Source: Vibrio vulnificus CMCP6 | Lineage (GTDB): Bacteria > Pseudomonadota > Gammaproteobacteria > Enterobacterales > Vibrionaceae | Direction of reading: 5' to 3' | Length of the DNA stretch: 32,000 bases | Assembly (NCBI RefSeq): GCF_000039765.1 | Contig: NC_004460.2 | Coordinates: forward strand, 1,800,001 to 1,832,000 | In this document: positions 522 through 22,754 of the stretch, piece after piece | Numbering within the stretch: the first letter of the stretch is position 1 | Layout: every line of letters begins with the position of its first letter | Translations under genes and position numbers: made by a program | The notes under the pieces: generated by a model | Databases searched by the model: none | Seen by the model: only the letters and a program-made list of their open reading frames with translations | What the model was told of the DNA's origin: nothing

Positions 522-664
522 GTAGTAAAAAATTCGCTAGTCTACATACTAAGAGAGCAAGGAAAAGAACCTTCAACTTCACAAATTTGCTTGCAACTAA
601 AACGTAAGTTTGAAGTATGTGCTCTAAAACAAAATTGTTGTGTGTTATCCAAGAGGACAAGACG

Positions 665-1237
665 ATGAATATGCTGACATTCGATAAAAATGAAAACCAA
701 CAACAACGCCCATTTATCGCTGAAGCTGTATTTGCCGTCGAAGCGGTAAATTCTAATCAGCAAGATGAAAAACAACAAAAAGCGAAACAGCTTCTCGACA
801 GAATGTTTCCGCTAGAATCTGGCTCACATCAAGACGTAACCAGCTATGTGATCGATTATCGCCACCTGATGGCATATTTTGCAGATGGTTCCCACAGTGG
901 CCTTCAAGCACCCAAACATTTTGTCGCTTTCACCGGTGAGAAAGAAGATCCTTGCTCTATCTTGCTACGCGATGAATCAGGCAGTCACATTGAAGTGATG
1001 CTGGGTTGCCACAAAGGTACAGGAAGTGTGGAACTTGTCGATATCGATGATATTCAATTGGAAACGCGCACGACCTTTAGCCCTGAATTAACGGGTGATG
1101 CACCAACGGCAATGCGTCATTGGATCAGTCTAGTGAAAGGCGATGTGAATGGTAAGCCAATGGCAAGCAGTGAAGATAAAGAATATACCGCGAAAAGTGG
1201 TGAAGATTATGTACTGAGTTACTGCTATAGCATCTAA
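665..1237 (+). CDS. Hypothetical protein, 190 aa from ATG 665 (the ORF-track start at 617 gives 206 aa)
   Basis: Long ORF with AGAGGA 7 nt upstream of ATG 665 and a strong intrinsic terminator behind it. I recognise no family motif. Confidence 0.7.
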   Translation: MNMLTFDKNENQQQRPFIAEAVFAVEAVNSNQQDEKQQKAKQLLDRMFPLESGSHQDVTSYVIDYRHLMAYFADGSHSGLQAPKHFVAFTGEKEDPCSILLRDESGSHIEVMLGCHKGTGSVELVDIDDIQLETRTTFSPELTGDAPTAMRHWISLVKGDVNGKPMASSEDKEYTAKSGEDYVLSYCYSI

Positions 1238-2822: not shown

Positions 2823-3965
2823 TTATTGGAACAGGGTTAAATACTCGCCGTAACCCATTTTCTCCATTTGAGCCACAGGAATGAATTTCATGGCCGCTGA
2901 ATTCATACAATAACGCAATCCGGTTGGTGCGGGTCCATCGTCAAAGACATGGCCTAAGTGCGAATCCGCAAACTTGCTTCGCACTTCTGTGCGTGGGTAA
3001 AGCAGTTTGTAGTCGGTTTTGGTGACAATGTAAGCCGAGCTAATCGGTTTGGTAAAACTTGGCCAACCTGTACCGGATTTATACTTGTCCGTTGAAGAAA
3101 AGAGTGGCTCACCAGAGACAATATCGACATAGATACCCGCCTCTTTGTTATCCCAATATTCGTTGTTAAAGGGTCTTTCAGTGCCTTCTTTCTGTGTGAC
3201 GTAATATTGTAAATCTGTTAGTTGTGCTTTGATCTCTTTGTCTGATGGGCGCGAGTAGGTTTTGGCGTTTTTCGTCAGTGCCTTCTCATCAATCAACTGA
3301 CGCAGTGTTTTGGGTTGCTCAATGCGATCATCACCAAAGACTTTATCGAGATACTGGTCACGACCAGAGGCGTGGCGGTAATACTTGTATTTCAAGCTAC
3401 TTTTTTTGTAGTAGTCCTGATGGTATTGCTCCGCGGGATAAAACGCTGTGTACTCAATCAATTCCGTTTTAATTGGTTTTGGGTAGATCTTCGCCTCATC
3501 GACTTCTTTAAGAAACCGCTCCGCAATCTGTTTTTGCTCGGCAGTATGATAAAAAATAGCGGGGCGATATTGTGGACCTCGATCGACAAATGAGCCTTTA
3601 TCGTCGGTAGGGTCAATATGGCGTAGGAAGTAATCTAACACCGCTTCATAGCTGACAACGTTGGGATCGTAGCGGAATTGAATTACTTCAATGTGACCCG
3701 TTTTACCCGAGGAGACTTGTCGATAAGTCGGATTCGCCATCTCGCCACCCGAATAACCAGACACCACATCATACACCCCATTCAGTTTTTCAAGGTCTGA
3801 TTCAGTACACCAGAAACAACCACCAGCTAACGTTGCTACTGGCAAGGATGCCAAGTTTGGTGCGGTTTTGTCCATGGTATCGGCAACGCCGACTTTGGCG
3901 AGCAGAGTGAACATAAGTGGCAGCGCAATGGCTGCGGAAATGAGTAATTTGCTGAGTTTTTTCAT
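2823..3965 (-). CDS. msrAB: Secreted bifunctional methionine sulfoxide reductase (MsrA-MsrB fusion)
   Basis: MsrA motif GGCFWC and MsrB motif [11 protein letters not shown] are both present. The start was chosen at [23 protein letters not shown] (signal peptide) because GAGG lies 5 nt upstream. The ORF track extends to 4004. Confidence 0.9.
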
Positions 3966-12255: not shown

Positions 12256-12321
12256 TGTGTTTCCTGTCTGTCTTTTATTTTGTTTATTCGACTGATAGTA
12301 CATGGGGTTGAGTTTTGTGAA

Positions 12322-12358
12322 ATGTCCATTTATGCTCTTGAATATGTCCATTTATGCT
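12322..12358. promoter_or_regulatory. Perfect 15-bp direct repeat ATGTCCATTTATGCT (12322-12336 and 12344-12358; 22-bp register); candidate AraC-type operator
   Basis: Read directly from the sequence. It lies in the divergent aminotransferase / AraC-GyrI regulator intergenic region. Confidence 0.45.
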
Positions 12359-16752: not shown

Positions 16753-16764
16753 TGGTCTACACCA
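16753..16764. promoter_or_regulatory. Candidate PhnR (GntR/HutC-type) operator TGGTCTACACCA, 26 nt upstream of phnW
   Basis: TGGT-N4-ACCA inverted repeat. It is one of three such sites, all directly upstream of phn transcription units. Confidence 0.55.
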
Positions 16765-16892: not shown

Positions 16893-16921
16893 CTGCCATT
16901 TAATGGTCATGATTTCGTCAC
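16893..16921 (+). promoter_or_regulatory. Pho-box-like phased repeats CTGCCAT-ttaa-TGGTCAT-gatt-TCGTCAC upstream of phnS
   Basis: 7-bp words in an 11-bp register with 6/7, 5/7 and 4/7 matches to CTGTCAT. The spacing to a -10 element is unclear. Confidence 0.35.
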
Positions 16922-16950: not shown

Positions 16951-16962
16951 TGGTACAGACCA
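16951..16962. promoter_or_regulatory. Candidate PhnR operator TGGTACAGACCA, 32 nt upstream of phnS
   Basis: TGGT-N4-ACCA inverted repeat. Confidence 0.55.
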
Positions 16963-16994: not shown

Positions 16995-18005
16995 ATGATG
17001 AAAAACCGTTTGATGAAAGGATCGCTGGCTGCGCTTGTCTCTCTGCTTGCTACCAATGCAATGGCTGCACAGGAAGTGACGGTTTACACCGCTTTCGAAA
17101 CTGACATTCTTGCTAAATACAAGTCTGCGTTTGAGAAAGACAACCCAGATATCAAGATTAAGTGGGTTCGTGATTCAACAGGTATCATGACGGCGAAATT
17201 GCTGGCAGAAAAGAACAACCCTCAAGCGGAAGTGGTTTGGGGTCTTGCTGGCTCGTCAATGGCACTGCTTAAAGATGAAGGTCTTCTTAAGCCTTACACA
17301 CCAAAAGGTTTGGAAGAGCTGCACGCGAACCTAAACGACCCCCAATCAAACCAAGCTTGGTTTGGTAACGATGCGTTCTTTAACGCAGTTTGTTTCAACG
17401 AAGCGGTAGCGAAACAACTTAACCTACCGAAACCAACGTCTTGGGAAGACCTAACGAAGCCAGTTTACAAAGGTCACATTGCAATGCCTAACCCAGCTTC
17501 TTCAGGCACGGGTTACATGCAGGTGTCTGCTTGGCTACAAAACATGGGTGAAGATCAGGCATGGAACTACATGCGTGACCTAGACAAAAACATTGCACAC
17601 TACACGCACTCGGGTTCTAAGCCATGTGTTCAAGCGGGTATGGGTGAAGTGGCTATCGGTATTTCGATGGCGAGCCGCGGCGCGAAGCTGAAAACACAAG
17701 GTGCACCACTTGCGGTTATCACACCTAAAGGCATTGGCTGGGAATCAGAAGCGGTTGGCCTAGTGAAAGAGTCGGATGCAGCGAAGCGCGTTGTCGACTG
17801 GTCAATCTCGAAAGCGGCGAACGAGCTTTACGTGGAAATGTACCCAGTGGTGGGGCACAAAGATGTGAAAGCGACCGTGTCTAACTTCCCGAACGTTCAA
17901 GAAAATATGGCGAAGATGGACTTCGCGCAAATGGGTAGCAAGCGTGCAGAAATTCTAGCGGCATGGTCTGAGAAGTTTGACGCGAAATCAGAGCCAAAGT
18001 CTTAA
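16995..18005 (+). CDS. phnS: 2-aminoethylphosphonate ABC transporter periplasmic substrate-binding protein
   Basis: Signal peptide (LAALVSLLATNAMA|AQE) and an Fbp/AEP-type binding-protein fold pattern in a phn cluster context. The second ATG at 16998 has better RBS spacing. Confidence 0.85.
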   Translation: MMKNRLMKGSLAALVSLLATNAMAAQEVTVYTAFETDILAKYKSAFEKDNPDIKIKWVRDSTGIMTAKLLAEKNNPQAEVVWGLAGSSMALLKDEGLLKPYTPKGLEELHANLNDPQSNQAWFGNDAFFNAVCFNEAVAKQLNLPKPTSWEDLTKPVYKGHIAMPNPASSGTGYMQVSAWLQNMGEDQAWNYMRDLDKNIAHYTHSGSKPCVQAGMGEVAIGISMASRGAKLKTQGAPLAVITPKGIGWESEAVGLVKESDAAKRVVDWSISKAANELYVEMYPVVGHKDVKATVSNFPNVQENMAKMDFAQMGSKRAEILAAWSEKFDAKSEPKS

Positions 18006-18031
18006 TTGAATTTGCTTTGAGTTGAATGCTG

Positions 18032-18062
18032 AAATCCACCTCGGTTGAGGTGGATTTTTTTG
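18032..18062 (+). terminator. Strong rho-independent terminator of phnS
   Basis: AAATCCACCTC-ggtt-GAGGTGGATTT forms a perfect 11-bp stem, followed by a T-tract. Confidence 0.85.
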
Positions 18063-19065
18063 TCTGCGGCGCCAAGGCGAGGCTGTTTTTTTATCGTGTC
18101 GACGCTTTAGGTTCGATGCCATTCGTTTTACGGGGGCTCGCGGCGGAATGGATTCCGGATAGCTCGCTCAGGCTCGTCCGGAATGACGTGCTTTTTGATT
18201 ATGGAAGTGTCGTGCTTTAAGTGTCATTCCCGATAGTGACGAAGGAGCGTGATCGGGAAACCATGGTATTTGCTTGGTGTTGGGGTGAATTTTCATCTCG
18301 ATAGAAATGGATTTTTTTGTCTTCGGCACCAAGGCGAGGCTGTTTTTATCGTGTCGACGCTTTAGGCTCGATGCCATTCGTTTTACGGGTGCTCGCGGCG
18401 GAATGGATTCCGGATAGCTCGCTCAGGCTCGTCCGGAATGACGTGCTTTTTGATTATGGAAGTGTCGCGCTTTAAGTGTCATTCCCGATAGTGACGAAGG
18501 AGCGTGGTCGGGAAACCATGGTATTTTCTGGCGCGAATGCGAAAGTTCACCACGATAGAAATGGATTGTTTGTTATAGGCACCAAGGCAAGGTTGTCTTT
18601 TATCGTTTCGACGCTTTAGGTTCGATGCCATTCGTTTTGCGGGTGCTCGCGGCGGAATGGATTCCGGATAGCTCGCTCAGGCTCGTCCGGAATGACGAGT
18701 TCTTTGATAATGGAAGTGTCGCGCCTAAGTGTCATTCCCGATAGCGACGAAGGAGCGTGGTCGGGAAACCATGGCATTTGCTTGGTGTTGGGGCGAATTT
18801 TTCCCTCGATAGAAATAGATTTTTTTGTTTTCTGCGCCAAGGCGAGGCTGTTTTTTTATCGATTCGACGCTTTAGGTGCGATGTCATCCGTTTTACGAAG
18901 AACGCGGCGGAATGGATTCCAGATAGCTCGCTCAGGCTCGTCTGGAATGACGAGTTCTTTGATAATGGAAGTGTCGCGCCTAAGTGTCATTCCCGATAGC
19001 GACGAAGGAGCGTGATCGGGAAACCATGGTATTTGCTTGGTGTTGGGGCTTAAGTTGGCCATAGT
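18051..19065 (+). repeat. Tandem array of four ~255-bp copies of a hairpin-rich non-coding element
   Basis: Unit starts are at 18051, 18308, 18562 and 18816. The landmark (G/T)TCGACGC recurs at 18098, 18353, 18607 and 18863. The copies are collinear with scattered substitutions and small indels. Confidence 0.95.
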
Positions 19066-19117
19066 ATCTTTAACGATGAGTCTTGTTAGGTCGACGCGGT
19101 GATCTCACTTCATCTAT

Positions 19118-19167
19118 TTGTCATCTTCTGGCTATAAATTTGTCATTGGAACGTAACACTCTAAAAC
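19118..19167 (+). promoter_or_regulatory. Candidate independent phnT promoter: Pho-box-like repeats TTGTCAT-cttc-TGGCTAT-aaat-TTGTCAT plus a possible -10 TAAAAC (19162-19167)
   Basis: 7-bp words at 19118, 19129 and 19140 in an 11-bp register. TTGTCA at 19140 could also serve as a -35 element, 16 nt from TAAAAC. Confidence 0.35.
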
Positions 19168-19173
19168 TAAATT

Positions 19174-19185
19174 TGGTATATACCA
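19174..19185. promoter_or_regulatory. Candidate PhnR operator, perfect palindrome TGGTATATACCA, 15 nt upstream of phnT
   Basis: Perfect 12-bp palindrome of the same TGGT-N4-ACCA type as the phnW and phnS sites. Confidence 0.55.
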
Positions 19186-19200
19186 TTTGGAGTGTGTGTT

Positions 19201-20307
19201 ATGTCAACTAACCAACCTTACCTAAATATTGAAAATGTTGTGAAGCAATTCGGTCAGTTCACGGCATTAAAGAATATCTCGCTGGCGATACAAAAAGGCG
19301 AATTCGTTTGTTTCTTGGGCCCTTCTGGCTGCGGTAAAACCACTTTATTACGAGCCATCGCTGGTTTAGACCTACCAACGTCTGGTGCGATTTTTCAAAA
19401 CGGTCAAGAAACCACATTCCTACCACCAGAGAAGCGCGATTTTGGCATCGTATTCCAATCTTATGCGCTGTTTCCGAATCTAACTGTGCAAGAGAACATT
19501 GCGGTGGGTTTGAAGAACCAAGGCATGTCGACCAAAGAAGCGTTAGAGACTGTGGAGATGTGGCTTGAGACCATTGGCCTGCCAACTTCTGGTGAGAAGT
19601 TCCCGAACCAGCTTTCCGGTGGGCAGCAGCAGCGTGTTGCTTTGGCCCGCGCGTTGGCGTTGTCTCCAGGTCTACTGTTACTCGATGAGCCTTTGTCGGC
19701 GCTGGATGCAAAAGTGCGCGTTCACTTGCGTAATGAAATTTGCAAGCTGCAACGCAAGCTCGGCATCACCACCATTATGGTTACACACGATCAGGACGAA
19801 GCCCTGTCGATGGCCGATCGCATCGTGGTGATGAACCATGGGGTGATTGAGCAAGTCGGCACACCTCAAGAGATCTACCAACAACCAGCAACGCGCTTTG
19901 TCGCTGAGTTTGTCGGCAGCATGAACTTTATTGAAACCTCCGTCGCAACGGATTCCCAAGTGCGCATTGCTGAGACCTTGATGCCAGCGCCAAGCCTGAC
20001 CAATCGTAAGATCCAACGTGGCGACCGATTCGATCTGGCTGTGCGTCCTGAAAGCATCAAGTTCGTTGAAAACTACAACAACTCTTTACCGGTACGTGTT
20101 ACCGCAACCGAGTTTCTGGGGGCGTTTTTCCGCATTGATTGTGTATTGCAAAACGACAGCGCAAGCCAAACCATCGTTGTGGATGTGCCTGTAGAAACAG
20201 TGCAGAAACTTACTATCAAGGCGGGCGATGTACGTTACATCCAGTTTGCGGAAGAAGGGTTACATGGTTACGCCGTGCCTTCGGTTGATAAAGCGCTAGC
20301 GGCGTAG
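19201..20307 (+). CDS. phnT: 2-aminoethylphosphonate ABC transporter ATP-binding protein
   Basis: Walker A GPSGCGKTT, signature LSGGQQQRVALARAL and Walker B LLLLDEPLSALD. GGAG lies upstream of ATG 19201. The track start at 19192 is a GTG. Confidence 0.9.
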   Translation: MSTNQPYLNIENVVKQFGQFTALKNISLAIQKGEFVCFLGPSGCGKTTLLRAIAGLDLPTSGAIFQNGQETTFLPPEKRDFGIVFQSYALFPNLTVQENIAVGLKNQGMSTKEALETVEMWLETIGLPTSGEKFPNQLSGGQQQRVALARALALSPGLLLLDEPLSALDAKVRVHLRNEICKLQRKLGITTIMVTHDQDEALSMADRIVVMNHGVIEQVGTPQEIYQQPATRFVAEFVGSMNFIETSVATDSQVRIAETLMPAPSLTNRKIQRGDRFDLAVRPESIKFVENYNNSLPVRVTATEFLGAFFRIDCVLQNDSASQTIVVDVPVETVQKLTIKAGDVRYIQFAEEGLHGYAVPSVDKALAA

Positions 20308-20315
20308 GTGTAAAC

Positions 20316-22040
20316 ATGGATGCAAAGATAATGACAATGAATAGCCTCACCACACAAGACAAAGCGAAATCTTTACTCGGGCGCATCAGTCGTGACAACC
20401 TCGTGTTGTTTGGCTTGTTGGCCGGTTTATCGGTATTGATGGTGCTGTTCATCTTAATGCCGCTTTGGGCAATGTTGACCAAAAGCGTACAAAACAGCGA
20501 TGGTGAGTTTGTTGGGTTAGCCAACTTTGTGACGTACTTTGCCTCTTCAAGCTTGTGGGTTTCCGTCGGCAACACCTTTACTTTGGGCGTGATTGTGACC
20601 TCGGTAGTGGGTGTACTTGCGTTTGGTTATGCCTACGCGCTGACTCGTTCATGTATGCCGTTCAAAGGTTTGTTTCAAATCCTAGGTACTGCGCCGATTC
20701 TCGCGCCTTCGTTGTTACCGGCGATCAGTTTGATCTTCCTTTTTGGTAATCAAGGCATTGCCAAAGAAATGCTGTTAGGAAACTCGGTTTACGGCGTGAT
20801 TGGTATTTCGATGGGTTTGATCTTCTGGACCTTCCCTCATGCATTGATGATTTTGACCACTTCGCTGCGCACTTCCGATGCCCGTTTGTATGAAGCCGCC
20901 CGCGCGCTGAAAACCTCACCAATCAAAACCTTCTTTATGGTGACGTTACCGGCGGCGAAATACGGTTTGATCAGTACCCTGATTGTTGTATTCACGTTGG
21001 TGATTACCGATTTTGGTGTACCTAAAGTAATTGGTGGCAGCTACAACGTTCTGGCGACGGACATCTTCAAGCAAGTGGTGGGGCAACAAAACTTTGCTAT
21101 GGGGGCGGTGACCAGCATTCTGTTGCTATTCCCTGCGGTCATGGCGTTTGGTGCAGACCGTTGGGTACAGAAAAAACAAAAGAGCTTATTCGACACGCGT
21201 TCAGTGCCTTATCAGCCAGAACCTAACAAAGCGCGCGACAGCATTTGTTTGGTTTACTGCAGCATCATTTCTATTGCAGTGTTGGCAGTACTTGGCATGG
21301 CGATGTATGGCTCGTTAGTTACTTTCTGGCCTTGGAACAAAGCGCTGACACTAAACAACTATAACTTTGCTGAAATGAGCACTTACGGTTGGAGTCCATT
21401 CTTTAACTCGCTAACGCTGGCAGGTTGGACTGCGCTTATTGGTACAGCCATTATTTTCGTCGGTGCGTATTGCATTGAAAAAGGGCGTGCGTTTGGGCCA
21501 GTTCGTCAAGTGATGCAAATGCTCAGCGTGGTGCCAATGGCGGTTCCCGGTATGGTGCTTGGCTTGGGTTACATTTTTTATTTTAACGATGCGAACAATC
21601 CTTTGAACGTGCTTTATGGCACCATGGCATTCTTGGTGATTAACACCGTAGTGCACTATTACACGGTCGGCCATATGACAGCATTAACGGCGCTCAAGCA
21701 ACTGCCTTCAGAAATAGAAGCCACAGCGGCATCGGTCAAGCTGCCACAGTATAAGCTCTTTTTTAAAGTGAGTTTGCCCGTGTGCTTTCCTGCGGTTTTG
21801 GATATTGCTAGCTACTTGTTTGTTAATGCATTAACCACCACTTCTGCGGTAGTATTCCTCTATTCGACGGATACCATTCCCGCGTCAGTATCGATTCTCA
21901 ATATGGACGATGCAGGCCAAACGGGCGCAGCGGCGGCAATGGCGGTGATGATCATGCTATCGGCCGCTATCGCAAAAATCGTGCAAATGATATTGGGCCA
22001 ATGGTTAGACAGTCGTACTCAAGCTTGGCGGAAAAGATAA
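20316..22040 (+). CDS. phnU: 2-aminoethylphosphonate ABC transporter permease (fused two-domain, ~12 TM)
   Basis: A 574-aa polytopic membrane protein with two permease halves. It starts 8 nt after phnT. Confidence 0.85.
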   Translation: MDAKIMTMNSLTTQDKAKSLLGRISRDNLVLFGLLAGLSVLMVLFILMPLWAMLTKSVQNSDGEFVGLANFVTYFASSSLWVSVGNTFTLGVIVTSVVGVLAFGYAYALTRSCMPFKGLFQILGTAPILAPSLLPAISLIFLFGNQGIAKEMLLGNSVYGVIGISMGLIFWTFPHALMILTTSLRTSDARLYEAARALKTSPIKTFFMVTLPAAKYGLISTLIVVFTLVITDFGVPKVIGGSYNVLATDIFKQVVGQQNFAMGAVTSILLLFPAVMAFGADRWVQKKQKSLFDTRSVPYQPEPNKARDSICLVYCSIISIAVLAVLGMAMYGSLVTFWPWNKALTLNNYNFAEMSTYGWSPFFNSLTLAGWTALIGTAIIFVGAYCIEKGRAFGPVRQVMQMLSVVPMAVPGMVLGLGYIFYFNDANNPLNVLYGTMAFLVINTVVHYYTVGHMTALTALKQLPSEIEATAASVKLPQYKLFFKVSLPVCFPAVLDIASYLFVNALTTTSAVVFLYSTDTIPASVSILNMDDAGQTGAAAAMAVMIMLSAAIAKIVQMILGQWLDSRTQAWRKR

Positions 22041-22049
22041 GGACACTTC

Positions 22050-22754
22050 GTGCAATACGTAAAAATTAAAGATTCGATTGTTGAACAGATTGAAGCAGGC
22101 ATGTTAGCGCCAAGACAAAAGTTGCCAGCAGAACGCAAATTAGCTGAGTCGTTTGATACCACACGAGTTACGCTGCGCGAGGCGTTGTCTTTATTGGAAG
22201 CGGAAGGTCGAATCTATCGCGAAGATCGCCGAGGTTGGTTTATCTCGCCTTTACCGTTGCGTTACGACCCAACTCAAACACTGAATTTTACCAATATGGC
22301 GTTAGCGCAGAATCGAGTGCCGAAAACACAACTGCTCGGCGCAAAAGCGATTTTAGCTAACAAAGTGGCGGCTCGCTTACTTAACCTTCAGCCATTTTCT
22401 GATGTGTTCCGTGTTGATCGTGTGCGTTATCTTGAAGACCGCCCGGTGGTGTACGTAACAAATTACGTTCGCCCTGAGTTGTTTCCCAATCTGTTAGACC
22501 ACGATTTATCGAACTCACTGACGGATATCTATCGTGAGCACTTTGGGGTCAGCTATCAAAAAACGCGCTACCGCATTTCTACCAGTACCTTGCTCGGAGA
22601 GATGGCTCAGGCGCTACGCGCAACTTCTGGGACGCCAGCAATGGTGGTGGAGCGCATTAACTACAATCAGCATGGCGAGCTCATTGACTGCGATATTGAA
22701 TATTGGCGTCATGATGCCATTTGTATCGAGTCTCTCGCAGAATTGGCAAGATGA
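22050..22754 (+). CDS. phnR: GntR/HutC-family transcriptional regulator of the phn locus
   Basis: Winged HTH (KLPAERKLAESFDTTRVTLREALSLLEAEGRIY) plus a UTRA-type C-terminal domain. GTG start 9 nt after phnU, with AAGGAC upstream. Confidence 0.85.
   Translation: MQYVKIKDSIVEQIEAGMLAPRQKLPAERKLAESFDTTRVTLREALSLLEAEGRIYREDRRGWFISPLPLRYDPTQTLNFTNMALAQNRVPKTQLLGAKAILANKVAARLLNLQPFSDVFRVDRVRYLEDRPVVYVTNYVRPELFPNLLDHDLSNSLTDIYREHFGVSYQKTRYRISTSTLLGEMAQALRATSGTPAMVVERINYNQHGELIDCDIEYWRHDAICIESLAELAR

What the first reader, a model, noticed from the sequence alone, without database searches (positions are those of the whole stretch)
18032..19065. ~1 kb array of four tandem ~255-bp copies of a structured non-coding element splits the AEP transporter operon between phnS and phnT
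The unit boundaries can be read directly. The word TGGATTTTTTT starts at 18051 and 18308. It reads TGGATTGTTTG in the third copy (18562) and TAGATTTTTTT in the fourth (18816). The periods are therefore 257, 254 and 254 bp. The landmark GTCGACGC/TTCGACGC recurs at 18098, 18353, 18607 and 18863. The copies are collinear over their whole length, with scattered substitutions and 1-2 nt indels. The array fills nearly all of the 1195-nt gap between the phnS stop (18005) and the phnT start (19201). By contrast phnT-phnU and phnU-phnR are separated by only 8 and 9 nt. The first unit begins inside the 3' arm and T-tract of the phnS intrinsic terminator. The later unit junctions look like decayed copies of that terminator. 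No reading frame is open through all copies. There are no unique spacers, no terminal inverted repeats and no adjacent transposase or integrase. The position directly after the binding-protein gene of an ABC operon is the classical niche of REP/BIME elements. In the enterobacterial mal and his operons those elements uncouple expression of the binding protein from the membrane components. This unit is much longer than a REP element and is tandem. I do not recognise it as a named Vibrio repeat family.
Basis: partly seen in the sequence, partly recalled or inferred. Interest (0 to 1): 0.75.

Follow-up and report, generated by a model that had tools for sequence, protein, structure and literature searches.

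The report
Variable hairpin-repeat array after phnS
The 1-kb array is a real, strain-variable (1 to 5 copies) tandem repeat in Vibrio vulnificus, built from REP-like DNA hairpins that also occur in other marine vibrios; it most likely is selfish or near-neutral repeat DNA lying between two separately controlled phosphonate-uptake transcription units, not a device that splits an operon.

Summary
There are four head-to-tail ~255-bp units at 18037-19049 (88% matches). The same array is present in complete V. vulnificus chromosome II sequences. Copy number ranges from 1 to 5 between strains.

- The unit as a whole is not significantly structured, is non-coding, and was found only at this locus.
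- Each unit carries two ~42-nt hairpins in inverted orientation. They have the form cGTC-ATTCCnnn / purine-rich loop / nnnGGAAT-CTC.
- These hairpins belong to a dispersed family found in V. campbellii, V. rotiferianus and marine metagenome contigs. Members always occur in clusters of alternating orientation, usually at gene 3' ends, and the clusters are often tandemly duplicated.
- The 8-bp stem covaries. The outer motif matches the extended Neisseria dRS3 (NIME) repeat.

The operon is not "split" by the array.
- phnS ends in a strong terminator that lies before the array.
- phnT has its own Pho-box-like site and a PhnR-type palindrome.
- Other V. vulnificus strains carry a GNAT gene, or another insert, in the same slot.
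- The slot coincides with a haplotype break: 94% identity on its left and 82% on its right.

Best reading: a REP/BIME/NIME-like mosaic expanded by unequal recombination, which makes it a new member of a known kind. No RAYT or recombinase partner was found.

The parts
16893..16921 (+). Pho-box-like site upstream of phnS: three 11-nt-phased heptamers, CTGCCAT/TGGTCAT/TCGTCAC
   Evidence: one of only two triple-phased matches in the 32 kb, on both strands, against 0.07 expected. Consensus definition from PMC4415409. PhoB binding is inferred.
16951..16962 (.). TGGTACAGACCA palindrome upstream of phnS, a candidate PhnR (GntR/HutC-type) operator. A second one lies at 16753-16764 next to the phnW start.
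   Evidence: 6 matches to TGGTNNNNACCA against 0.5 expected, three of them in phn promoter regions. The operator role is inferred from knowledge of the family.
16995..18005 (+). phnS2, the substrate-binding protein of the 2-aminoethylphosphonate ABC transporter
   Evidence: TIGR03261, 528 bits.
18031..18065 (+). phnS intrinsic terminator: 12-bp stem, GGTT loop, T7. It is also the first part of repeat unit 1.
   Evidence: -17.9 kcal/mol, z -6.4.
18037..18293 (+). Repeat unit 1 (257 bp)
18294..18547 (+). Repeat unit 2 (254 bp). It starts with a decayed copy of the terminator.
   Evidence: -4.8 kcal/mol.
18548..18801 (+). Repeat unit 3 (254 bp). It starts with a decayed copy of the terminator.
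   Evidence: -2.2 kcal/mol.
18802..19049 (+). Repeat unit 4 (last unit)
   Evidence: junction hairpin -0.6 kcal/mol.
18147..18188 (-). Family hairpin A of unit 1: cgtcATTCCGGA-17 nt-TCCGGAATcc, read on the minus strand
   Evidence: 50.8 bits, E 3e-11.: -17.5/-14.3 kcal/mol.
18402..18443 (-). Family hairpin A of unit 2
   Evidence: 50.8 bits.
18656..18697 (-). Family hairpin A of unit 3
   Evidence: 50.8 bits.
18911..18952 (-). Family hairpin A of unit 4, with a compensatory double change (CCGGA/TCCGG to CCAGA/TCTGG)
   Evidence: 49.5 bits.
18222..18265 (+). Family hairpin B of unit 1: tgtcATTCCCGAT-17 nt-ATCGGGAAac
   Evidence: 48.3 bits.
18477..18520 (+). Family hairpin B of unit 2
   Evidence: 47.7 bits.
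18730..18773 (+). Family hairpin B of unit 3
   Evidence: 48.4 bits.
18985..19028 (+). Family hairpin B of unit 4
   Evidence: 49.1 bits.
18198..18227 (-). Minus-strand promoter-like site (ATGACA-18-CATAAT) in the A-B spacer. It recurs at 18453-18482, 18707-18735 and 18962-18990.
   Evidence: 9-10 of 12 matches. The count for the region is not above the shuffles (5 against 3.1 +/- 2.0). Function is speculative.
19050..19108 (+). Unique tail between the last unit and the conserved phnT promoter segment. The right boundary of the variable slot is at 19108/19109.
   Evidence: the GNAT allele, the L018 allele and all array alleles rejoin homology at 19109.
19107..19146 (+). Pho-box-like site upstream of phnT: phased heptamers ACTTCAT/TTGTCAT/TGGCTAT/TTGTCAT
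   Evidence: The segment 19109-19200 is 96-97% conserved in GNAT-type strains, whose phnT is only 82% identical.
19174..19185 (.). TGGTATATACCA palindrome 15 nt upstream of the phnT ATG, a candidate PhnR operator
   Evidence: Also present in L001.
19201..22754 (+). phnT2-phnU2-phnR, tightly spaced (8 and 9 nt)
   Evidence: TIGR03265, TIGR03262, TIGR03337.

Best explanation
The array is a minisatellite-like, strain-variable tandem amplification of a ~255-bp intergenic mosaic. Its conserved cores are two REP-like hairpins in inverted orientation, forming a REPIN/BIME/NIME-type doublet.

The hairpin family has the form cGTC-ATTCCnnn, a 14-19-nt purine-rich loop, then nnnGGAAT-CTC. It is dispersed at low copy number in vibrios, mainly at gene 3' ends. 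An as yet unidentified trans-acting enzyme is presumed to spread it.

Proposed history at this locus:
1. One mosaic unit (terminator, hairpin relics, A/B doublet) sat downstream of phnS, as it still does in strain L020.
2. Unequal homologous recombination or replication slippage between unit copies then produced 2 to 5 copies.

The array lies in a dispensable spacer. It sits after the phnS intrinsic terminator and before the independent Pho-box/PhnR-type promoter of phnTUR. Its main effect is therefore to lengthen that spacer from about 430 to about 1450 nt. At most it reinforces insulation against read-through. It is not needed for phn operon logic and is probably near-neutral.

Shown here: the array, its copy-number polymorphism, the hairpins and their covariation, dispersal of the family, the alternative alleles in the slot, and the separate promoter-type sites.

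Inferred: the amplification mechanism, neutrality, PhoB and PhnR binding, and how the family is mobilised.
For: - Array and unit structure.
- Copy number of 1-5 with conserved first and last units and variable internal units, as expected from unequal crossing-over.
- Complete genomes carry the array, and the organism is V. vulnificus.
- Hairpin family: 8 of 8 array hairpins score 47-51 bits and nothing else in the 32 kb does.
- The same family occurs in V. campbellii, V. rotiferianus and 9 metagenome contigs, in clusters of alternating orientation. The clusters lie mostly between convergent genes.
- Two clusters were found in 300 kb of V. campbellii chromosome 2.
- Independent tandem duplications of hairpin-bearing units of 200-320 bp occur in L012, L025 and L059.
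- Stem covariation: 95% of cells are paired, 5 of 8 pairs change on both sides, 0 of 500 shuffles reach the observed values, and slid controls give 4-59% paired.
- The A+B doublet folds as one long hairpin (z -3.3).
- Strong terminator before the array and decayed junction copies.
- phnT's own Pho-box-like and palindromic sites.
- The slot holds a GNAT gene or a different insert in other strains.
- No coding or Rfam signal.
Against: - No mobilising enzyme was found. There is no RayT homologue in any Vibrio record of PLSDB, including the 2-Mb V. campbellii chromosome 2 that carries the hairpins, and no transposase in the window.
- Genome-wide copy number in V. vulnificus could not be measured. 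The exact hairpin A 26-mer occurs in only one of 185,579 representative genomes, so individual variants are rare.
- Seven strains share a 100% identical four-unit array, and the hairpins are the best-conserved part of the unit. This could reflect selection rather than neutrality.
- Neutrality and the lack of transcription across the array are untested.
Confidence: 0.6

Rival explanations
1. Cis-regulatory array. The hairpins act on RNA to stabilise the 3' end of phnS mRNA, or to attenuate read-through, and so set the ratio of binding protein to membrane components. Copy number would tune that ratio.
For: - The position directly after the binding-protein gene is the classical REP/BIME niche.
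- The hairpins are stable (-12 to -17.5 kcal/mol).
- G-T wobble pairs in the stems are kept on the canonical strand (8 G-T against 2 C-A at stem positions 1-8), which suits a single-stranded (RNA or ssDNA) form.
- The hairpins are the most conserved part of the unit.
Against: - A strong intrinsic terminator (z -6.4) precedes the whole array.
- phnT carries its own Pho-box-like and operator-like sites, conserved across alleles.
- Strains with the identical PhnS protein have no array at all and carry a GNAT gene instead.
- Copy number of 1-5 varies freely, and one strain (L018) has most of the unit replaced.
Confidence: 0.15
2. NIME-like recombination site. The hairpins share the CGTCATTCC...GGAATCT ends of Neisseria dRS3. 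They would be targets of a site-specific recombinase or hot spots for recombination with incoming DNA. This would promote exchange of the adjacent segment and gene block, and the array would grow as a by-product.
For: - Three non-homologous alleles (array, GNAT gene, 677-nt insert) occupy the same slot with one shared right boundary at 19108/19109. One left breakpoint lies 8 nt from hairpin A.
- There is a sharp haplotype break at the slot: 93-96% identity on the left against 69-83% on the right.
- The same outer motif as dRS3 is seen in N. gonorrhoeae and in L033.
- Neisseria NIME arrays vary in length, flank divergent genes and hold recombination end points (PMC1797815).
Against: - No ORF of 150 aa or more in the window matches a recombinase family.
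- The shared right boundary is not at a hairpin.
- Only one locus was examined, so the coincidence with the haplotype break may be chance or may simply mark the edge of a variable island.
- The Vibrio hairpin geometry (14-19-nt loop) differs from dRS3 (4-nt loop).
Confidence: 0.12
3. Array of small or antisense RNA genes. Each unit would carry a minus-strand promoter (ATGACA-17/18-CATAAT) that fires a transcript beginning at hairpin A. From unit 1 that transcript would run antisense into the 3' end of phnS.
For: A promoter-like site with 9-10 of 12 matches is present in all four units.
Against: - The number of promoter-like sites is not above the shuffles (5 against 3.1 +/- 2.0).
- There is no minus-strand terminator.
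- The whole unit is not significantly structured on either strand.
- There is no Rfam match.
- Copy number is freely variable.
Confidence: 0.06
4. A protein-coding gene, an integron cassette or CRISPR array, or an assembly artefact.
For: Gene callers annotate 64-136-aa ORFs in the array in some assemblies.
Against: - No frame is conserved and indels are 1-2 nt.
- The ORFs match no protein family.
- Homologues exist only in the same V. vulnificus array and have variable lengths.
- There are no unique spacers and no integrase.
- The array is identical in two finished chromosomes.
Confidence: 0.02

Closest known systems
Neisseria intergenic mosaic elements (NIME): arrays of RS units flanked by dRS3 repeats (ATTCCC-N8-GGGAAT)
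   Same: - The extended ends are the same: CGTCATTCC(C)...(G)GGAATCT.
- Both are arrays of 50-300-bp units punctuated by the hairpins.
- Array length varies between strains.
- Both are associated with divergent flanking genes (PMC1797815).
   Different: - The Vibrio hairpin has an 8-9-bp stem and a 14-19-nt purine-rich loop, where dRS3 has a 4-nt loop.
- Copy number is far lower: 2 clusters per 300 kb against about 700 dRS3 per 2.2 Mb (the Neisseria figure is from my own knowledge).
- Here the units are a regular tandem of one 255-bp unit rather than a mosaic of many RS families.
- No phage or recombinase partner is known.
E. coli/Salmonella REP and BIME elements, including tandemly amplified BIME-2
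   Same: - Both are extragenic imperfect palindromes in alternating orientation at gene 3' ends.
- The niche after the binding-protein gene of an ABC transporter is the same.
- Both tend to amplify in tandem.
   Different: - There is no GTAG 5' tetranucleotide; the Vibrio hairpins have CGTC.
- No RAYT was found.
- The array lies downstream of an intrinsic terminator, not inside a polycistronic mRNA.
- The repeat unit is 255 bp and includes non-hairpin sequence.
REPIN-RAYT systems (Pseudomonas, Enterobacteria)
   Same: Two inverted REP-like hairpins form a doublet that can fold into one long hairpin.
   Different: - Spacers between the two hairpins are variable in length (about 20-150 nt) and sequence.
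- A cognate RAYT was not identified.
Bacterial VNTR or minisatellite loci
   Same: Head-to-tail units with copy-number polymorphism (1-5) between strains. The edge units are conserved and the internal units are variable.
   Different: The units are old (10-17% diverged) and contain members of a dispersed hairpin family.
Vibrio superintegron attC repeats (VCR/VVR)
   Same: A Vibrio chromosome II location and repeated structured DNA sites.
   Different: - There is no integrase.
- There are no cassettes between the repeats.
- The sequence is unrelated.

Membership tests
REP/BIME (RAYT-associated repetitive extragenic palindromes) | Short imperfect palindrome, located outside genes | tested here: met
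   Hairpins of 40-44 nt with an 8-9-bp stem. Clusters lie between genes, mostly at 3' ends.
REP/BIME (RAYT-associated repetitive extragenic palindromes) | Many dispersed copies per genome | tested here: inconclusive
   Several loci in several species. Two clusters in 300 kb of V. campbellii chromosome 2. No copy in the window outside the array. A whole V. vulnificus genome could not be searched.
REP/BIME (RAYT-associated repetitive extragenic palindromes) | Alternating orientation of palindromes within clusters (BIME) | tested here: met
   Minus/plus pairs in every unit and in most other loci. The L059 array has three hairpins in one orientation.
REP/BIME (RAYT-associated repetitive extragenic palindromes) | Conserved GTAG-type 5' tetranucleotide | tested here: not met
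   The conserved 5' flank is CGTC. The REPs flanking the Neisseria RAYT do have GTAG.
REP/BIME (RAYT-associated repetitive extragenic palindromes) | A cognate RAYT gene flanked by the REPs | tested here: inconclusive
   tblastn with E. coli RayT found no Vibrio record in PLSDB, including the 2-Mb V. campbellii chromosome 2, and nothing in any fetched locus. Chromosome I and the V. vulnificus genomes were not searchable.
Neisseria NIME/dRS3 | 20-bp dRS3, ATTCCC-N8-GGGAAT | tested here: not met
   The Vibrio hairpins are ATTCC plus 23-27 nt plus GGAAT. Only the outer ends (CGTCATTCC.../...GGAATCT) coincide.
Neisseria NIME/dRS3 | Arrays of repeat units bounded by the hairpins, differing in length between strains | tested here: met
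   1-5 units in V. vulnificus. One against two units at the orthologous locus in V. campbellii and V. rotiferianus.
Neisseria NIME/dRS3 | Hairpin is the integration target of a phage-encoded recombinase | not testable with these tools
   No ORF of 150 aa or more in the window matches a recombinase family. No family hairpins of the Vibrio type were found in the viral contigs.
MITE | Terminal inverted repeats, target-site duplication and a related autonomous IS | tested here: inconclusive
   The A/B doublet gives TIR-like ends. No target-site duplication could be identified and no empty site was available. No transposase match in the window.
Integron cassette array (attC/VCR) | intI integrase, plus unique cassettes between attC sites | tested here: not met
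   No ORF of 150 aa or more matches an integrase family. The units are head-to-tail with no unique inserts.
CRISPR array | Short repeats separated by unique spacers | tested here: not met
   The 255-bp units are homologous along their whole length.
Known structured RNA family (Rfam) | Match to a curated covariance model | tested here: not met
   No hit at gathering thresholds in the window. Only two chance-level hits at E <= 10 in 17900-19300.
VNTR/minisatellite | Tandem units with copy number polymorphic between strains | tested here: met

The most novel reading that the evidence does not exclude
Vibrios would possess NIME-like arrays, which Bentley et al. 2007 described as not observed in non-neisserial genomes. 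Hairpins with the ends CGTCATTCC...GGAATCT occur in Neisseria, Vibrio and GC-rich proteobacteria. They would be recognition sites of a conserved, still unidentified recombinase or HUH-type enzyme. That enzyme would promote cassette-like exchange of adjacent DNA. This would explain why the phnS-phnT slot holds three unrelated inserts and marks a deep haplotype break.
Probability: 0.12. Interest if true: 0.65.

Novelty: new member of a known kind. Interest (0 to 1): 0.3.

Why it matters
- For annotation: the 64-136-aa 'hypothetical proteins' called inside this array in V. vulnificus genomes are spurious. phnS and phnTUR should be treated as separate Pho/PhnR-controlled units.
- For typing: the locus is a ready-made VNTR marker (1-5 copies) that also distinguishes two deep haplotypes of the phosphonate cluster.
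- For repeat biology: it adds an apparently unnamed REP-like hairpin family in Vibrionaceae. The family forms tandem mosaics of 200-320 bp and shares its ends with Neisseria dRS3. This gives a second, genetically tractable genus in which to ask what spreads such hairpins and whether they promote recombination.
- The array does not appear to change how the AEP transporter works.

Tried and rejected
1. Rfam at gathering thresholds and at E <= 10 gave nothing relevant.
2. Whole-unit RNA folding on both strands is not better than shuffles. I therefore dropped 'one structured 255-nt RNA'.
3. BLAST of the unit or the whole array against PLSDB and INPHARED phages found only a 39-nt hairpin hit in V. 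campbellii chromosome 2 and no phage match. The 255-bp unit as such was found only at this locus.
4. The genome-contig scan with the exact hairpin A 26-mer found only V. rotiferianus.
5. The viral-contig scans found no Vibrio-type hairpins. They did turn up Neisseria dRS3 and GC-rich relatives.
6. The RAYT search (E. coli RayT tblastn against PLSDB and all fetched loci) gave no Vibrio hit. The Neisseria RAYT is flanked by GTAG-type REPs, not by dRS3, so a RAYT link is unproven.
7. Coding potential was rejected: Pfam and NCBIfam on five array ORFs and a 5.8-billion-protein search with the longest ORF.
8. Similarity between the array and the GNAT gene that replaces it: none.
9. A literature search for the hairpin sequences, Vibrio REP/REPIN/MITE and V. 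vulnificus tandem repeats found no description of this family.
10. The L018 insert has no PLSDB match and its ORF matches no protein family.
11. Possible decayed hairpins in the 5' half of the unit (GTCTTCGGCGCCAAGGCGAGGCTG, and CCATTCG...CGGAATGG) resemble family members by eye but do not score with the model. I treat them as unproven relics.
Full report
**1. Observation**

Tandem Repeats Finder reports a single large array in the window. It spans 18037-19049, with period 255, 4.0 copies, 88% matches and 1% indels. A MAFFT alignment of the four units is collinear, with only 1-2-nt indels and 90% mean column identity. Pairwise identities are 83-90%.

- phnS2 (16995-18005), phnT2 (19201-20307), phnU2 (20316-22040) and phnR (22050-22754);
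- phnW, a PbfA-like lyase and phnX divergently upstream;
- a DUF6/EamA protein and an aminophosphonate oxidoreductase downstream.

**2. Organism and reality of the array**

Exact-protein look-ups of PhnS and PhnT place the locus on Vibrio vulnificus chromosome II. L014 is CP012740.1, strain FORC_017, and L022 is CP027031.1. Hits to the array ORFs are also named V. vulnificus.

The 1103-nt spacer is 100% identical in the window and six assemblies, two of them finished chromosomes. Other strains with the same PhnT protein have 5 units (L016), 3 (L019), 2 (L017) or 1 (L020). The first and last units are conserved between strains and the internal units differ. The array is therefore real and behaves as a VNTR.

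**3. The slot is variable and the operon is not split by the array**

Nine V. vulnificus contigs encode the identical PhnS protein but have no array. They carry a different terminator and a 136-aa GNAT acetyltransferase gene between phnS and phnT. Homology to the window stops at the phnS stop codon and resumes at 19109.

A further strain (L018) keeps unit 1 only up to 8 nt past hairpin A. It then has 677 nt of unrelated DNA and rejoins at the same right boundary.

The slot also marks a haplotype break:
- To its left, all strains are 93-100% identical to the window.
- To its right, array-type strains are 96-100% identical.
- GNAT-type strains are only 82% (phnT), 83% (phnU), 78% (phnR) and 69% (eamA) identical on the right.
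- The 92-nt segment just upstream of phnT is nevertheless 96-97% conserved in GNAT-type strains.

That conserved segment holds a Pho-box-like run of 11-nt-phased heptamers (19107-19146). A triple-phased match with at most 4 mismatches occurs only twice in the 32 kb, upstream of phnS (16893) and upstream of phnT (19118), against 0.07 expected. The consensus definition comes from PMC4415409.

A perfect TGGTATATACCA palindrome lies at 19174. Related palindromes lie upstream of phnS (16951) and next to phnW (16753). In total there are 6 matches to TGGTNNNNACCA against 0.5 expected. From what is known of GntR/HutC-type operators, I infer that these are PhnR sites.

phnS ends in a 12-bp-stem, T7 terminator (-17.9 kcal/mol, z -6.4) that precedes the array. 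The homologous sequences at the later unit junctions are decayed (-4.8, -2.2 and -0.6 kcal/mol).

Taken together, phnS and phnTUR look like two separately PhoB/PhnR-controlled units in every allele. This is an inference from sequence. The array occupies a dispensable spacer.

**4. What the unit is made of**

The 255-nt unit as a whole folds no better than shuffled sequence on either strand (z about -0.5). It has no Rfam match. It is non-coding: there is no conserved frame, the ORFs match no protein family, and the only homologues are variable-length ORFs from the same array.

Each unit does contain two related hairpins in inverted orientation:
- A, on the minus strand: cgtcATTCCGGA-17 nt-TCCGGAATcc.
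- B, on the plus strand: tgtcATTCCCGAT-17 nt-ATCGGGAAac.

They are 35 nt apart. Unit 4 carries a compensatory double change in A. Together A and B can fold into one long, REPIN-like hairpin (z -3.3 on the minus strand).

**5. A dispersed family**

The same hairpins occur elsewhere:
- in V. campbellii chromosome 2;
- at the orthologous locus of V. rotiferianus, where a ~300-bp mosaic of four alternately oriented hairpins is duplicated in tandem;
- in nine metagenome contigs with unrelated gene contexts.

A covariance model built from 20 members finds exactly the eight array hairpins in the window and nothing else. Elsewhere it finds 2-8 hairpins per locus, in clusters whose members mostly alternate in orientation. 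Most clusters lie between convergent genes or at gene 3' ends.

In 300 kb of V. campbellii chromosome 2 there are two clusters. One of them is a further tandem array of about three ~307-320-bp units filling a 1.4-kb intergenic gap. L025 holds another 2 x ~200-bp duplication.

Across 43 distinct hairpins, 95.3% of stem cells pair and 5 of 8 pairs show changes on both sides (32 cells). None of 500 shuffles reach the observed values, and slid controls give 4-59% pairing. One caveat applies: that alignment was fitted to the model. RNAalifold on an independent MAFFT alignment gives the same helix.

G-T wobbles are tolerated on the strand that reads CGTCATTCC. This hints at a strand-specific single-stranded form.

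So the 255-bp unit was found only at this locus, while its cores are members of a low-copy, dispersed, REP-like family that repeatedly forms tandem mosaics.

**6. Relation to known systems**

The architecture matches the REP/BIME/REPIN kind. It has extragenic palindromes, a conserved 5' flank, inverted doublets, clusters at gene 3' ends and tandem amplification.

Two defining features are missing or unproven:
- There is no GTAG tetranucleotide.
- No RAYT was found. E. coli RayT finds no homologue in any Vibrio record of PLSDB, including the 2-Mb V. campbellii chromosome that carries the hairpins, nor in any fetched locus.

A degenerate scan for the hairpin ends unexpectedly recovered Neisseria dRS3 repeats (CGTCATTCCCGCGCAGGCGGGAATCT) and GC-rich relatives. 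The N. gonorrhoeae sequence confirms the shared ends. In that locus the RAYT itself is flanked by GTAG-type REPs, not by dRS3.

Neisseria NIME arrays are RS units flanked by dRS3. They vary in length between strains, adjoin divergent genes and hold recombination end points. They were said not to occur outside Neisseria (PMC1797815). The V. vulnificus array parallels these properties. It fails the strict dRS3 definition, however, because its loop is 14-19 nt rather than 4 nt, and only one locus was examined here.

I found no paper describing this Vibrio family.

**7. Mechanism and verdict**

Most likely (0.6), this is a REP/NIME-like mosaic unit downstream of phnS that was amplified to 2-5 copies by unequal recombination or slippage. 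It sits in a spacer between two independent transcription units and has little or no role in phn regulation.

Rivals:
- an RNA-level regulatory role (0.15), weakened by the upstream terminator, phnT's own promoter-type sites and the array-less alleles;
- a NIME-like recombination-promoting site (0.12), suggested by the three alleles in one slot and the haplotype break;
- minus-strand sRNA or antisense promoters in each unit (0.06), for which promoter-like sites are not above chance;
- coding sequence, integron, CRISPR or artefact (0.02).

Novelty: a new member of a known kind. Interest is modest at 0.3. It would be higher only if the dRS3-like ends turn out to mark a shared recombination machinery.

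Noticed in passing
L018 3232-3908 (V. vulnificus GCA_965138845.1), the slot equivalent to window 18190-19108: The array is replaced, 8 nt after hairpin A, by 677 nt of unrelated DNA. It carries a 36-aa minus-strand ORF (MRFKDPLKDSVRDSLPVLARGILAALAGKICELLMW) followed by a strong hairpin. This looks like a small hydrophobic-peptide (type I toxin-like) cassette. It has no Pfam, NCBIfam or PLSDB match.
   Followed up: partly
L001 7012-7546 (and L002-L010), the slot equivalent to window 18006-19108: Most V. vulnificus contigs with the identical PhnS protein carry a different phnS terminator and a 136-aa GNAT acetyltransferase gene instead of the array. Their phnTUR-eamA genes are only 69-83% identical to the window and their downstream neighbours differ. 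There are thus two deep haplotypes of the phosphonate cluster.
   Followed up: partly
L059 36211-37048 (V. campbellii NZ_CP050465.1, about 586.2-587.0 kb): A second, unrelated intergenic tandem array: about three units of 307-320 bp, 87% matches. Each unit contains a hairpin of the same family, and the array fills a 1.4-kb gap between two co-oriented genes.
   Followed up: partly
L033, L043, L050, L037, L047 (viral/prophage contigs) and L055 1227-1364 (N. gonorrhoeae): Hairpins with the same ends, CGTCATTCC...GGAATCT, occur as Neisseria dRS3 repeats and as GC-rich versions in unidentified bacteria. This suggests a cross-genus class of hairpin repeats whose shared partner is unknown.
   Followed up: partly
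window 16753-16764, 16951-16962, 19174-19185: TGGTNNNNACCA palindromes lie next to the phnW, phnS and phnT starts (6 in the window against 0.5 expected). They are candidate PhnR (GntR/HutC-type) operators. Three further matches lie inside coding regions at 3355, 24233 and 27071.
   Followed up: partly
window 12318-12358: A 22-bp direct repeat (TGAAATGTCCATTTATGCTCT, 1.9 copies, 95% matches) lies in the divergent region between an aminotransferase gene and an AraC/GyrI-like regulator gene. It may be an operator.
   Followed up: no
window 617-1237: A 206-aa ORF matches only the insertion domain of malate synthase G. This suggests a gene fragment or a mis-called frame at the left part of the window.
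   Followed up: no
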